Shown piece after piece: positions 14,766 through 59,852 of a DNA stretch of 64,000 bases (position 1 is its first letter; each line of letters opens with the position of its first letter). Source of the DNA: Eledone cirrhosa (taxonomy: Eukaryota); assembly GCA_964016885.1 (NCBI GenBank), contig OZ024756.1:18476001-18540000 (forward strand), read 5' to 3'. The notes beneath the pieces were generated by a model. The model saw only the letters and a list, made by a program, of their open reading frames with translations. It was not told the origin of the DNA and did no database searches. A program made the translations under genes and the position numbers.

Positions 14766-15126
14766 CAGGAAAGAAGATTGACATGGTTTGCTATACAAAA
14801 AAGGTTTTTAATCTCATTGCTGACAATTGTTTCTCTGAACTGGTAGGTCTAGAGATCGCTATTCGCTTGTTTTCACGTTACTCGATCGCCAATACAAAAT
14901 TATAACCAGTCAGTTCTTCGGAGCATGCGAGAATGAAGAGGATATACAGGCATGAAAGGAATATACAGGCTACTAGAACTGACTGGTTATAATTTTGTAT
15001 TGGCGATTGAGTAACGTGAAAACAAGCGAATAGCGATCTCTAGACCTACCAGTTCAGAGAAACAATTGTCAGCAATGAGATTAAAAACCTTTTTTGTATA
15101 GCAAACCATGTCAATCTTCTTTCCTG
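14766..15126. mobile_element. Fold-back element, arms about 152 bp (14766-14917 / 14975-15126), ending in (TA)n
   Basis: Near-perfect reverse complement. Contains GAAACAATTGTC-AGC, resembling an HHR 3' half. Confidence 0.85.
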
Positions 15127-15204
15127 TTTTATATATATATATATATATATATATATATATATATATATATATATGTACGTATGGGTTATATCGAACACTA
15201 AAAA

Positions 15205-15355
15205 TGGTTTCTTATATAGGCACAAGGCCAGCAATTTTGGGAGAGGGGGGAAGTCGATTACATCGACTCAGTTCATGACTGGTACTTTATTTTATCGACC
15301 CCGTAGGGATAAAAGGCAAAGTTAGCCTCGGCGGGATTTGAACTCAGCTCATAAA
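15205..15355 (-). mobile_element. Family 1 SINE fragment
   Basis: Core motif match. Confidence 0.8.
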
Positions 15356-15409
15356 GGCTTGAGCTCTGCCGTCGGGGTCATACTTTTTCCTATATATATA
15401 TATATATAT

Positions 15410-15701
15410 AAGCAAAGGAATATTTAATTTGTTGGTAATTCAACAAATATATTTATAACAGATTCGAAGAACTCGACAAGTTTTCTGGAGTATAATATCA
15501 ATGATATTAATAAATGGCAACCATATTTATAAAACCATATTTATAAATAATAGAATAAATAATAGAATAAATATGGTTTTATAAATATGGTTGCCATTTA
15601 TTAATATCATTGATATTATACTCCAGAAAACTTGTCGAGTTCTTCGAATCTATTATAAATGTATTTGTTGAATTACCAACAAATTAAATATTTCTTTGCT
15701 T
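15410..15701. mobile_element. Fold-back element in (TA)n; same family as the tail at 59720-59850
   Basis: Arms 15410-15545 / 15567-15701. Shares AATAAATATGGTTTTATAAAT...AAAACTTGTCGAGT with the 59.7-kb element. Confidence 0.85.
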
Positions 15702-55710: not shown

Positions 55711-57635
55711 GTATTGATAAGATACTCTGATCCTATCACCCCGGTACTAGGGATATTGATAAGATACTCTGATCCTATCACCCCGGCACTAGGGATATTG
55801 ATAAGATACTGCTGATCCTATCACCCCGGCACTAGGGGTATTGATAAGTTACTGCTGATCCTATCACCCAGGCACTAGGGATATTGATAAGATATTGCTA
55901 ATACTATCACCCCGGCACTAGGGATATTGATAAGTTACTGTTAATACTATCACCCCGGCACTAGAAGTATTGATAAGATACTGTTAATACTATCACCCCG
56001 GCACTAGGGATATTGATAAGTTACTGTTAATACTATCACCCCGGCACTAGGAGTATTGATAAGATACTGTTAATACTATCACCCCGGCACTAGGGGTATT
56101 GATAAGATACTGTTAATACTATCACCCCGACACTAGGAGTATTGATAAGATACTGTTAATACTATCACCCCGGCACTAGGAGTATTGATAAGATACTGTT
56201 AATACTATCACCCCGGCACTAGGAGTATTGATAAGATACTGTTAATACTATCACCCCGGCACTAGGGGTATTGATAAGATACTGTTAATACTATCACCCC
56301 GGCACTAGAAGTATTGATAAGATACTGTTAATACTATCACCCCGGCACTAGGGGTATTGATAAGATATTGCTAATACTATCACCCCGGCACTAGAAGTAT
56401 TGATAAGATATTGTTAATACTATCACCCCGGCACTAGAAGTATTGATAAGATACTGCTGATCCTATCACCCCGGCACTAGGGGTATTGATAAGATACTGT
56501 TAATACTATCACCCCGGCACTAGGGGTATTGATAAGATATTGCTAATACTATCACCCCGGCACTAGGAGTATTGATAAGATACTGTTAATACTATCACCC
56601 CGGCACTAGAAGTATTGATAAGATACTGTTAATACTATCACCCCGGCACTAGGAGTATTGATAAGATATTGCTAATACTATCACCCCGGCACTAGAAGTA
56701 TTGATAAGATATTGCTAATACTATCACCCCGGCACTAGGGGTATTGATAAGATACTGTTAATACTATCACCCCGGCACTAGAAGTATTGATAAGATACTG
56801 TTAATACTATCACCCCGGCACTAGGAGTATTGATAAGATATTGCTAATACTATCACCCCGGCACTAGAAGTATTGATAAGATACTGCTGATCCTATCACC
56901 CCGGCACTAGGGGTATTGATAAGATATTGTTAATACTATCACCCCGGCACTAGAAGTATTGATAAGATACTGCTGATCCTATCACCCCGGCACTAGGGGT
57001 ATTGATAAGATATTGTTAATACTATCACCCCGGCACTAGAAGTATTGATAAGATACTGCTGATCCTATCACCCCGGCACTAGGGGTATTATAAGATACTG
57101 TTAATACTATCACCCCGGCACTAGAAGTATTGATAAGATACTGTTAATACTATCACCCCGGCACTAGGGGTATTGATAAGATATTGCTAATACTATCACC
57201 CCGGCACTAGAAGTATTGATAAGATACTGCTAATACTATCACCCCGGCACTAGGGGTATTGATAAGATAGTGCTGATCCTATCACCCCGGCACTAGGAGT
57301 ATTGATAAGATATTGCTAATACTATCACCCCGGCACTAGGAGTATTGATAAGATACTGTTAATACTATCACCCCGGCACTAGGAGTATTGATAAGATATT
57401 GCTAATACTATCACCCCGGCACTAGGGGTATTGATAAGATACTGTTAATACTATCACCCCGGCACTAGGAGTATTGATAAGATATTGCTAATACTATCAC
57501 CCCGGCACTAGGAGTATTGATAAGATATTGCTAATACTATCACCCCGGCACTAGGGGTATTGATAAGATACTGCTGATCCTAACACCCCGGCACTAGGGG
57601 TATTGATAAGATACTGTTAATACTATCACCCCGGC
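55711..57635. repeat. 43-bp minisatellite, about 45 copies
   Basis: Unit GTATTGATAAGATACTGTTAATACTATCACCCCGGCACTAG(GA/GG/AA). Confidence 0.95.
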
Positions 57636-58646
57636 CCCGGGACATAATAATAATAAGAAGCAGACGACAACATAGAACATACTAGATTATCTTGTTTTAG
57701 ATATTACAGCAATTTGGTAATAAATAGTGGGCTTTTAGCAAGCCCCTTGTCAATTCGGGGCTGCAGGCACCCTAGTGTTGCCATGGTGGTTTCAGACACC
57801 ACAATGGTCTGTGCGGGCTTAGATGAGTCCTATTGCCGCTCTGGAGGTTTTTGGGAGGATATATTGTCGCTATATACATACACATATACACACACGCACA
57901 CACATACATACACGCTCACACACATACGCACATACACCCACACCCACACCCACACACACAATAAACCTAATAATGCTTTGTCTTATTGCATCTCTGTATG
58001 TGTCTCGTTTAATCTTGAATTACACACAAAAGCACACAAACACACTCACTCACACACTCACACACACTCACACACTCACACACACACTCACACTCACACA
58101 CACACTCACACACTCACACACTCACACACACTCACACACTCACACACTCACACACTCACACACTCACACACTCACACACACTCACACACACACACACACA
58201 CACACACACACACTCACACACACACTCACACACACTCACACACTCACACACACTCATACACACTCACACTCACACACACACACACTCACACACTCACACA
58301 CACTCATACACACTCACACTCACACACACACACACTCACACACTCACACACACTCACACACTCACACACACTCATACACACTCACACTCACACACACACA
58401 CACATATCTACTAAATTAGGTTTAATCGATTCATATTAAAATATATAACGATTATGTTTCTCAATAAAAAAAGTTCCATGAACATAAGTTTATTGCCTCA
58501 ATAGAACAAGTTTAAACTTGCTGTGTGCATATATATATATATATATATATATATATATATATATATATATATATATATATATATGAATAACAAAATATAT
58601 ATATATGAATAACAAAATATTATCACTTCACATGGCTGAATACAAT

Positions 58647-59111
58647 AAATGTAATCTGAGTTTTTCGAATATTAATAATAATATTCGATTCATTTGCAAT
58701 TATGCAAACAGCCTCTTTTAAGCCATGTCAGTAGAATGACCACCTCATTTTTGCTCTTGTGTTGGCATGTAAACAGAACTGCAGACATTAATGTTTCTGG
58801 GTGATTACCCTTCATCAGTGCAGTTCACTGTTCATCTGCCAACTGTCAGAGTTATTGAAAATATATGATATTTTCTAAAATATACAGGGACTGATCGGCT
58901 TGATTTGCATATTAGCAGACTGGCTGATCTGTCAGGCCTGCATATTAACAGAACAGGGAACTACACTGATGAAGGGTAATCACCCAGAAACATTAGTGTC
59001 TGCGGTTTACATGCCAACACAAGAGCAAGAATGAGGGGCTTATTCTATTGTATAATTGCAAACGAATTGAATATTATTAATATTCGAAAAACAAAACTCA
59101 GATTACATTTA
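58647..59111. mobile_element. Older, diverged fold-back HHR element after (TA)n
   Basis: Arms about 58647-58834 / 58950-59111, with mismatches and indels. Confidence 0.8.
58776..58826 (-). ncRNA. Minimal type I HHR (decayed plus-strand copy at 58958-59008)
   Basis: GAACTGCA-CTGATGA-aGGGT aatc ACCCa-GAA-ACATTAATGT-C-TGCAGTTC. Confidence 0.88.
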
Positions 59112-59396
59112 TATGTATATATAAATTTCCTCACTTTTCGTTGCTTCACCATCTTTGTTTGTTTACACTCTCGTGTCCCCTTTATTTACGTGTCCCAACG
59201 ACTTTTTTTAGCCGTTGCTCGCACCAACCGGAGGTATATGGTCTTTAAAGCGATGGAATACCAATGATGGTTGGAAGATCACTGATGAAGGACTAACTTT
59301 ATTCATATGTAACCCATTAGCAACCACGCAGCACGTTTATTCTCACACACACACACACATATATATATATATATATATATATATATATATATATAT

Positions 59397-59852
59397 ATAC
59401 GATATTAAACAAATGGAAACTATATTTATAAAACCATATTTATTTCATTATACATATTTCGGGGATACCATATTAAAAATATGGCATGCCTTCTTCAGAT
59501 AAAATACAATATATAAACAGTTTTATAAATAATTTTGACGTACCATAAATATTGAGCAACCGTTATGTAGGAAGCCGGTTTGGTAGTGCTTCCTACATAA
59601 CGGTTGCTCAATATTTATGGTACGTCAAAATTATTTATAAAACTGTTTATATATTGTATTTTATCTGAAGAAGGCATGCCATATTTTTAATATGGTATCC
59701 CCGAAATATGTATAATGAAATAAATATGGTTTTATAAATATAGTTTCCATTTGTTTAATATCGTATATCTACTCCAAAACTTGTCGAGTGCTTTATATCA
59801 GTTATAAAATATTTACTTGTTGTAACCCAACAATTTTAAATAAAACTTTTGC
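59397..59852. mobile_element. Fold-back HHR element, arms about 180 bp, TA-flanked
   Basis: Arms about 59397-59575 / 59588-59766; tail to about 59852. Confidence 0.9.
59657..59722 (+). ncRNA. Type I HHR (inverted copy at 59441-59506)
   Basis: TATTTTAT-CTGAAGA-aGGcATGCCATATT ttt AATATGGTATcCCc-GAA-ATATGTAT-A-ATGAAATA. Confidence 0.82.

What the first reader, a model, noticed from the sequence alone, without database searches (positions are those of the whole stretch)
14766..59852. Many long fold-back insertions with one polarity: ribozyme sense strands diverge and 3' ends face outward
Seen: over a dozen inverted repeats with arms of 40-290 bp (14766, 15410, 17139, 17441, 21134, 25438, 26104, 28771, 30054, 30923, 32693, 35288, 36383, 58647, 59397). 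In each case where an HHR or HHR half lies in the arms (14766, 17139, 17441, 21134, 26104, 28771, 30923, 35288, 58647, 59397), the left arm is minus-sense and the right arm plus-sense. Usually one arm carries an extra 3' tail. Inference: both target strands primed reverse transcription near the RNA 3' end and the two cDNAs were joined head to head. This resembles the inverted pLTRs known from PLEs but here gives coding-free palindromes. It differs from LINE-1 twin priming in that the sequence is duplicated, not just inverted.
Basis: partly seen in the sequence, partly recalled or inferred. Interest (0 to 1): 0.75.

Follow-up and report, generated by a model that had tools for sequence, protein, structure and literature searches.

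The report
Head-to-head Penelope stubs, likely twin-primed
These mirror-image stretches are real, cut-short insertions of Penelope-like jumping genes in the head-to-head form already published for this class, and because exactly one half nearly always carries the element's tail while either half can reach further back, they were likely made by copying RNA from both cut DNA strands and joining the two copies.

Summary
Confirmed: all 15 listed fold-backs exist, and all 15 point 3' ends outward (hammerhead, ORF or family evidence). In 990 kb sampled across the genome, clean-centred repeats were head-to-head 69 to 1; those centred on a microsatellite split 16 to 14. They are truncated insertions of EN+ Penelope-like elements (PLEs): 17139 is the pLTR of a Neptune-type element, 14766 of a Hydra-type element. 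Coding palindromes of 3.3-3.4 kb share the polarity, so 'coding-free' is only truncation. Head-to-head polarity, one-sided tail and (TA)n targeting are published. The mechanism evidence is the useful part. One arm is tailed in 51 of 53 determinable cases. Ends fall on two fixed sites that solo copies also use. The tail-less arm often reaches further 5' (31 of 54), and some inverted pieces do not overlap at all. Both arms share one source copy. Junctions cluster about 30 nt below TATA boxes, not at ribozyme cuts. This favours twin priming at two RT start sites over snap-back. This scan reported the same structure and reading before, on other DNA of this genome.

The parts
14593..15132 (.). Fold-back of a Hydra-type PLE pLTR: arms 14760-14917 (minus-sense) and 14975-15132 (plus-sense); 57-nt spacer and tail both belong to the left arm (nested); hammerhead-like motif with CCGAAGA core and long stem II on the minus strand
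15410..15701 (.). Fold-back, arms 15410-15544 / 15567-15701, no tail on either arm; same family group as 59397
16579..16731 (.).
17076..17395 (.). Fold-back of the pLTR of a Neptune-type PLE (L072, 938 aa): arms 17142-17247 / 17304-17395; spacer and tail on the left arm (nested); U3-A8 variant hammerhead at -17263; left arm starts at -43 from the core, 29 nt below a TATA box
17442..17846 (.). Fold-back, arms 17442-17588 / 17605-17751, hammerheads at -17535 and +17658; 16-nt spacer on the left arm, tail on the right (staggered)
21135..21698 (.). Fold-back of the pLTR of an ORF-bearing PLE: arms 21135-21366 / 21404-21639; left arm -73..+176 (tail-out), right arm -41..+232 (tail-in) (staggered)
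25378..26070 (.). Fold-back, core arms 25539-25703 / 25867-26031, hammerhead at -25743 in the left-owned 163-nt spacer; by eye the left arm also has the longer 3' end (nested; the script labelled it staggered)
26104..27289 (.). Inverted arm 26104-26390 attached to a plus-sense partial tandem of a young 595-bp non-coding monomer with a hammerhead 3' half at about 26608
28697..28898 (.). Fold-back, arms 28771-28831 / 28838-28898, hammerhead 3' half in the arms, tail on the left
29905..30159 (.). Fold-back, arms 30054-30092 / 30121-30159; hammerhead 3' half in the right-owned spacer, tail on the left (staggered, by eye); left limit approximate
30922..31118 (.). Fold-back, arms 30922-30982 / 30991-31051, hammerhead at +30991, tail on the right; junction at -6 from the core, about 29 nt below a TATA-like box
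32692..33024 (.). Fold-back, arms 32692-32768 / 32870-32940 (67 of 71 identical); spacer on the left arm, tail on the right (staggered, by eye); family hammerhead lies upstream on the left arm's strand
35218..35423 (.). Fold-back of the 30923 family, arms 35286-35347 / 35359-35423, tail on the left
36383..36789 (.). Compound fold-back: two tandem minus-sense units (36383-36507, 36539-36647) facing one plus-sense unit (36665-36789); family has a U3-A8 hammerhead-like motif upstream (by eye)
58607..59112 (.). Older fold-back, arms 58645-58833 / 58951-59112 (93.5%), hammerhead at -58818 and a diverged copy at +58966; spacer and tail on the left (nested)
59399..59852 (.). Fold-back, arms 59399-59575 / 59588-59764 (100%), hammerheads at -59498 and +59665; 12-nt spacer on the left arm, tail on the right (staggered)

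Best explanation
The fold-backs are 5'-truncated insertions of several endonuclease-bearing Penelope-like retrotransposon families, set head-to-head in (TA)n tracts, and were likely built by twin priming: the element's GIY-YIG/RT protein would nick both target strands, one end would start copying at the downstream RT start site (tail included) and the other at the upstream site (tail excluded), and the two cDNAs would then be joined at their 3' ends. Shown: family identity, polarity, two fixed 3' ends, one-in/one-out pairing, common source of the arms, clustering of 5' ends. Inferred: that both cDNAs come from one RNA, with the tail-primed RT displacing the other cDNA (which would give duplication and, if it stops early, plain inversion); that the short palindromes are copies of short transcripts from the pLTR promoter read up to their 5' end; and that short homologies guide the join. 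The products are probably dead stubs.
For: PLE identity: 10,597 first-look GIY-YIG candidates in the genome, 150 scored, all over the cut-off; 17139 is the direct-repeat pLTR of L072 (RT + GIY-YIG); 21134 follows an EN C-terminus; 14766 flanks a Hydra-type ORF. Polarity: of 130 clean-centred repeats in 99 random 10-kb stretches, 69 head-to-head, 1 tail-to-tail (an AT-rich satellite match), 1 ambiguous, 59 not orientable; of 64 microsatellite-centred ones, 16, 14, 1, 33. Opposite-strand pairs in search tables: 9 of 9 and 7 of 7 head-to-head. Tail: on exactly one arm in 51 of 57 random-sample repeats scored, equal in 2, undetermined in 4; 7 of 7 pairs in the 14766 family, even with a full ORF between. 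In the 21134 family 3' ends sit at +176 and +232; solo-listed ends 13 and 23; 14 of 15 clean pairs are one of each against 46% expected (p 1.7e-4). L198 uses both sites in a non-TA target with a 12-bp duplication. Geometry: staggered 31, nested 23, undetermined 78 of 132; random sample 19 against 6 (p 0.015). Non-overlapping inversions: L192, L016, one pair in L175. Same source: shared minority alleles above all 2,000 arm permutations in three families; 30923 subfamilies A/A 13, B/B 6, mixed 0 of 19 typed pairs; 21134 indel concordant 9 of 10, three-allele site 6 of 7. 5' ends: 10 of 16 pairs at -59..-73 (21134), 4 of 4 at -39..-43 with TATA at -72 (17139), 6 of 7 unanchored pairs at -5..-10 with a TATA-like box at -35 (30923). 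Literature: the anole PLE protein cuts and extends both strands, starts at two RNA sites that bound the tail, and is predicted to be a dimer (PMC11167929).
Against: No biochemistry here; all mechanism steps are inferred from end positions. Over all sets staggered is not significantly more common than nested (31:23, p 0.34), 78 of 132 were undetermined, and the script mislabelled at least one of eight window cases (25438). Palindromes can lose central sequence asymmetrically after insertion (recalled), which would mimic staggered and non-overlapping junctions. One 21134 pair has no tail on either arm (L195), as does window 15410; L021 has the tail on both. Junction homology is mixed: 1-7 nt in 23 of 41 rough BLAST estimates, 0 in 5, negative in 8, 10 or more in 5; an exact method failed. 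One RNA cannot be told from two RNAs of one locus. [quoted passage not shown] The start sites are inferred from TATA spacing, not from RNA.
Confidence: 0.6

Rival explanations
1. Snap-back: one first-strand cDNA folds back at its 3' end, copies itself, and is joined to the second target end at a TA-like homology; later asymmetric central deletions blur the junctions.
For: Arms share one source. 23 nested cases. Perfect palindromic centres such as AGCT in four 30923 copies. Tail-out sites are TA-rich like the target.
Against: A copy cannot hold sequence its template lacks, yet 31 of 54 are staggered. With 36% of solo ends tail-out, about 5 of 15 pairs should be tail-less on both arms; 1 is. L198 ends at the tail-out site in a non-TA target. 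Tail-only inverted pieces exist (L192).
Confidence: 0.12
2. Two separate RNA molecules from the same source locus, held in one dimeric complex (protein dimer or ribozyme dimer), each primed by one target strand; otherwise as in the best explanation.
For: Explains duplication without strand displacement; minimal PLE hammerheads work as dimers (PMC4209133); stem III loops here are palindromic; two arm discordances at family-polymorphic sites (L180, L181).
Against: No mixed-subfamily pair in 19; two RNAs give no reason for the one-in/one-out rule unless the dimer is asymmetric. The two discordances can be later mutations.
Confidence: 0.15
3. Self-priming on an antisense transcript followed by endonuclease trimming of one tail (the proposals in PMC3846280 and PMC8557442).
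For: Gives head-to-head polarity and one source for both arms; trimming either arm could give one-sided tails and staggered geometry.
Against: Junctions cluster about 30 nt below sense-strand TATA boxes, where sense RNA should begin; non-overlapping inversions have nothing to self-prime from; PMC11167929 explains the tail by two RT starts on sense RNA.
Confidence: 0.1
4. Library or assembly fold-back chimeras, or MITE-like DNA transposons.
For: Some arms are 100% identical; no long raw reads of this individual were available.
Against: 69:1 polarity, element-specific ends, different junctions in each copy, arm divergence up to 13%, a 12-bp target duplication, strand-switching joints in raw Illumina reads of another study, and linkage to RT/GIY-YIG ORFs.
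Confidence: 0.03

Closest known systems
Insertion units of EN+ Penelope-like elements with an inverted 5'-truncated copy and a 30-40 bp tail (Arkhipova et al. 2013, PMC3846280; Craig et al. 2021, PMC8557442)
   Same: Head-to-head polarity, junction palindrome, tail on one end, partial tandems, (TA)n targets, hammerhead in the pLTR, occasional target duplication.
   Different: Tails here are longer (about 56 nt in 21134, 63 in 17139, over 140 in 14766). Most copies are stubs of the pLTR alone. Counts of polarity, tail pairing and geometry were not given in the passages I read.
PAc (Poseidon) element of the green anole in vitro (Frangieh et al. 2024, PMC11167929)
   Same: Two fixed RT start sites that bound the tail; AT-rich targets; both strands cut and extended; hammerhead cleavage not needed for insertion.
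   Different: That paper does not link two-strand extension to inverted repeats (searched for 'inverted', 'twin', 'palindrom', 'head-to-head') and saw no strand difference in start site.
LINE-1 twin priming (as described in PMC2912911)
   Same: Both target ends prime on the RNA, cDNAs are joined at short homologies, target duplication flanks the unit, 3' ends face outward.
   Different: In L1 the internal primer anneals at variable sites and inversion without large duplication is the rule; here the second site is fixed near the 3' end and the arms usually overlap almost wholly.
Neptune and Hydra clades of C-terminal EN+ PLEs (PMC8557442)
   Same: L072: DKG, CX4CxxC linker, two cysteines inside GIY-YIG. 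L252/L266 family: DKT, CxCX5C linker, no internal cysteines, CxxC and CxH at the C-terminus.
   Different: Clade placement is by motifs only; no tree was built.
Animal non-LTR retrozymes as non-autonomous PLE sequences (bioRxiv 10.64898/2026.07.22.740005; search listing and a term search only)
   Same: 26104 belongs to a 595-bp non-coding tandem monomer with a hammerhead half; L096 holds a 310-bp hammerhead tandem.
   Different: The term search found no mention of inverted or palindromic insertions in its main text.

Membership tests
EN+ Penelope-like elements | ORF with RT and C-terminal GIY-YIG endonuclease linked to the repeat | tested here: met
   17139: L072 938 aa, RVT_1 2.1e-6 (below cut-off) and GIY-YIG 2.2e-6. 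21134: EN C-terminus upstream of the pLTR, motif by eye, Pfam blank for the L186 fragment. 14766: ORF with RT and GIY-YIG motifs by eye, Pfam blank.
EN+ Penelope-like elements | ORF linkage for the other window families (15410/59397, 17441, 25438, 26104, 28771, 30054, 30923/35288, 32693, 36383, 58647) | tested here: inconclusive
   No ORF of 200 aa or more in the loci held; 30923, 26104 and 32693 look non-autonomous. They share hammerhead, tail and target features only.
EN+ Penelope-like elements | pLTR as direct repeat around the ORF or partial tandem | tested here: met
   L072 985-bp direct repeat at 98.3%; 595-bp tandems for 26104; 5.1-kb direct pair for 32693.
EN+ Penelope-like elements | Minimal type-I hammerhead in the pLTR, palindromic stem III loop | tested here: met
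   8 motifs in the window, 0 in 5 shuffles; 91 in 990 kb, a few of them dubious. Cleavage not tested.
EN+ Penelope-like elements | Inverted 5'-truncated copy at the 5' end (head-to-head) and optional tail at one end | tested here: met
   69:1 polarity; 51 of 57 with one tail.
EN+ Penelope-like elements | (TA)n target preference | tested here: met
   50 of 57 random-sample repeats have (TA)3 or more directly at an arm end.
Neptune clade (17139 family) | CX2-5CxxC linker, CCHH motif, DKG; phylogenetic placement | tested here: inconclusive
   Linker, internal cysteines and DKG seen in L072; Nematis and phylogeny not excluded, no tree built.
Hydra clade (14766 family) | DKT, CxCX5C linker, no CCHH, CxxC and CxH near the C-terminus | tested here: met
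   L252 and L266 translations against section 11 of PMC8557442; no tree built.
LINE-1 twin priming | Variable internal priming site, inversion without large duplication, L1 ORF2p and poly(A) tail | tested here: not met
   Second end is fixed (+176 in 21134), arms overlap in most pairs, ends abut (TA)n. It works like twin priming but is not L1.
MITE / foldback DNA transposon | Fixed-length unit with terminal inverted repeats mobilised as a whole | tested here: not met
   Each copy has its own junction and arm length; solo and tandem copies are common.

The most novel reading that the evidence does not exclude
Penelope-like elements integrate by an obligatory, site-programmed twin priming: a dimeric RT-endonuclease starts two cDNAs on one RNA at the two sites that bound the tail, one from each target strand, and fuses them head to head. 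The tail, the inverted pLTR, the junction palindrome and solo copies with or without a tail would then all be outcomes of one reaction, with no ordinary second-strand priming step.
Probability: 0.35. Interest if true: 0.72.

Novelty: new member of a known kind. Interest (0 to 1): 0.45.

Why it matters
How PLEs make their inverted pLTRs and one-sided tails is called undefined in PMC8557442, and the only in vitro study I found (PMC11167929) does not address it. This genome holds roughly 70 orientable head-to-head units per Mb (69 in 0.99 Mb; about 2 x 10^5 if extrapolated), across at least two clades. The one-in/one-out rule, the staggered arms and the promoter-linked junctions give sharp predictions for the existing in vitro system. 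The structure itself is not new.

Tried and rejected
Rfam: no family at gathering score; E-value mode gave only microRNA-like hairpin noise. The repeat finder was swamped by (TA)n. First polarity count (53:12) was inflated by one false hammerhead in the library and by pairs of separate insertions around (TA)n; inspected and redone. First geometry script was too noisy; the second counted undetermined cases as nested, corrected. Automatic reference picking was spoiled by microsatellites. Genome search with the 17441 core returned nothing, which shows nothing. Exact junction-homology counting against single reference copies failed. A non-templated G from a cap at the junction was looked for by eye output and not seen clearly. 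Sequencing runs: no RNA holder listed; no run covered the unique flanks, so no single locus and no empty site could be checked. Pfam did not recognise the L252, L251, L186 or L266 ORFs. Ribozyme-guided folding rejected: cut sites lie at +29 to +38 from the core, junction clusters upstream of it. [quoted passage not shown]
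Full report
Setting. The window lies at G000:C17:18476001-18540000 in a 3.0-Gb genome of 1,796 contigs. About half of it is simple repeat. The organism was not identified.

Observation. Arms are 39-287 bp and 92-100% identical, and almost all outer ends abut (TA)n. Rfam has no hit at gathering score, so I wrote a scanner for type-I hammerheads that demands the core, GAAA, UH and three stems. 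It finds 8 motifs in the window and none in 5 shuffles. All 8 fit left-minus/right-plus. The other elements were oriented by 3' half motifs, by family copies carrying the full motif, or by linked ORFs. All 15 are head-to-head.

Genome-wide polarity. I took 99 evenly spaced 10-kb stretches from 27 contigs and oriented arms against a library of hammerhead-downstream sequence and ORF-bearing real copies. Of 130 repeats with a clean centre, 69 were head-to-head, 1 tail-to-tail (AT-rich satellite, spurious), 1 ambiguous and 59 not orientable. Of 64 with a microsatellite at the centre, 16 were head-to-head, 14 tail-to-tail, 1 ambiguous and 33 not orientable. The tail-to-tail cases inspected earlier were pairs of separate insertions or library errors. 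The second group is an internal control: independent insertions show no polarity. Opposite-strand pairs in search tables were head-to-head in 9 of 9 and 7 of 7.

What they are. PF01541 gives 10,597 first-look candidates, 150 scored. The 17139 sequence is the pLTR of L072, a 938-aa RT + GIY-YIG ORF between 985-bp direct repeats, with Neptune-type motifs. The 21134 sequence follows the C-terminus of an endonuclease ORF. The 14766 sequence flanks an ORF with DKT, CxCX5C, no CCHH and C-terminal CxxC/CxH, the Hydra-clade signature in section 11 of PMC8557442; Pfam misses it. For the remaining families no ORF was found in the loci held. Palindromes with coding arms exist: L071 (3,256 bp, 99.4%) and L077 (3,389 bp, 98.7%), and L251 and L252 have a full ORF between inverted pLTRs. 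So the window's stubs are the short end of a continuum.

Literature. PMC3846280 (passages) describes the inverted pLTR, the tail on one of the inverted pLTRs, junction palindromes and head-to-head as most frequent, and proposes self-priming on an antisense template. PMC8557442 (passages and section 11) describes the inverted 5'-truncated copy, the tail at either end and (TA)n targeting, ascribes the tail to EN resolution, and calls the cycle undefined. PMC11167929 (parts 1-2 of 4 and a term search) shows cutting and extension of both strands, two RT starts that bound the tail, a predicted dimer, and no need for ribozyme cleavage. PMC4209133 (passages) covers minimal dimeric hammerheads; PMC2912911 (passages) L1 twin priming. 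No supplements were read.

Mechanism tests. (a) Tail: on exactly one arm in 51 of 57 random-sample repeats, equal in 2, undetermined in 4 (filter: identity at least 90%, spacer at most 300 nt). In the 14766 family 7 of 7 pairs. (b) Fixed ends: in the 21134 family, sampled by the hammerhead core alone, ends lie at +176 and +232; unpaired hits end there 13 and 23 times (some are arms of wide-spaced pairs). Of 15 clean pairs 14 are one of each, 1 is out/out, none in/in; I left out L131, L173, L183, the compound L040 and pairs that do not reach the pLTR (p 1.7e-4 against 46%). L198 uses both ends in a non-TA target with a 12-bp duplication. (c) Geometry: a snap-back copy must be nested in its template. 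Staggered 31, nested 23, undetermined 78 of 132; random sample 19:6 (p 0.015), all sets p 0.34. The anchored sets favour nested by design. By eye the window has 5 staggered (17441, 21134, 30054, 32693, 59397) and 5 nested (14766, 17139, 25438, 26104, 58647); the script mislabelled 25438. (d) No overlap at all in L192 (tail-only inverted piece), L016 and one pair in L175. (e) Same source: shared minority alleles exceed all 2,000 permutations in three families, though arms differ by 0-13% and the partner arm is seldom the single closest copy (5 of 37); no mixed-subfamily pair in 19; two discordances in the 21134 family. (f) 5' ends cluster 24-33 nt below TATA or TATA-like boxes in 17139, 30923 and one L071-family pair, and at -59..-73 near a YY1-like word in 21134, away from ribozyme cut sites. 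(g) Junction homology is short and mixed.

Reading. Twin priming at the two RT starts accounts for (a) to (f) together. A leading, tail-out cDNA and a trailing, tail-in cDNA that displaces it would also explain the excess of staggered cases in the random sample. Snap-back fails on (b), (c) and (d) unless later deletions are common, and deletions do not explain the lack of out/out pairs. Two RNAs of one locus and antisense self-priming with trimming remain open.

Artefact. Polarity, fixed ends, unique junctions, diverged arms and a target duplication argue against chimeras. Raw Illumina reads of another study show both 3' ends running into (TA)n and strand-switching joints within the 21134 family, for example 1364 to 1538 on L198; this supports the family pattern but not any single locus.

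Earlier notes. The scan holds many notes on this genome with the same reading. I had reached the PLE and twin-priming reading before that call (note). The start-site test was run after it, and one note led me to check the Hydra clade. They are not independent support.

Verdict. Real, repeated, and a known PLE insertion architecture in new families. The counts make a long-open mechanistic question testable. Interest 0.45.

Noticed in passing
window 17234-17263 (-); L043, L072, L073, L077, L081, L083, L126; L223: Hammerhead-like motif with a U3-A8 pair (core TTGAAAA) fixed in the 17139 family and, by eye, in the 36383 family; standard CUGANGA descriptors miss it. That U3-A8 can be functional is recalled, not tested.
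   Followed up: partly
window 14815-14935 (-); L072, L118: Hammerhead-like motif with core CCGAAGA; in the 14766 family stem II is about 75 nt long.
   Followed up: partly
window 43959-46093: hAT transposase fragments (DUF4371 and Dimer_Tnp_hAT).
   Followed up: no
window 35514-35936: RT fragment (RVT_1 3.8e-11), by eye RTE-like, directly after a 30923-family pLTR piece.
   Followed up: no
window 26384-27289; L264: Young 595-bp non-coding tandem monomer (702 first-look candidates, 99-100% identity), retrozyme-like.
   Followed up: partly
L096:251-3381: Array of at least 11 head-to-tail 310-bp monomers, each with a full hammerhead motif.
   Followed up: no
tails of 14766, 17441, 59397, 30054, 30923, 28771: The tail starts at or near a TA-rich TACTC(C/T)-like word in several unrelated families; it may be the signal for the upstream RT start.
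   Followed up: no
L172 and other 21134 copies, -59 from the hammerhead core: AAGATGGCG, a YY1-like word (motif recalled), lies at the cluster of 5' ends in this TATA-less family.
   Followed up: partly
L040:2482-3983: Three-part insertion with two internal strand switches and outer ends at +232 and +176 of the 21134 family.
   Followed up: no
window 4544-4815, 27663-28041, 34720-34793: Further inverted repeats that I could not orient.
   Followed up: no
window 46500-52100 and 60000-64000: Long, strongly strand-skewed tandem arrays.
   Followed up: no
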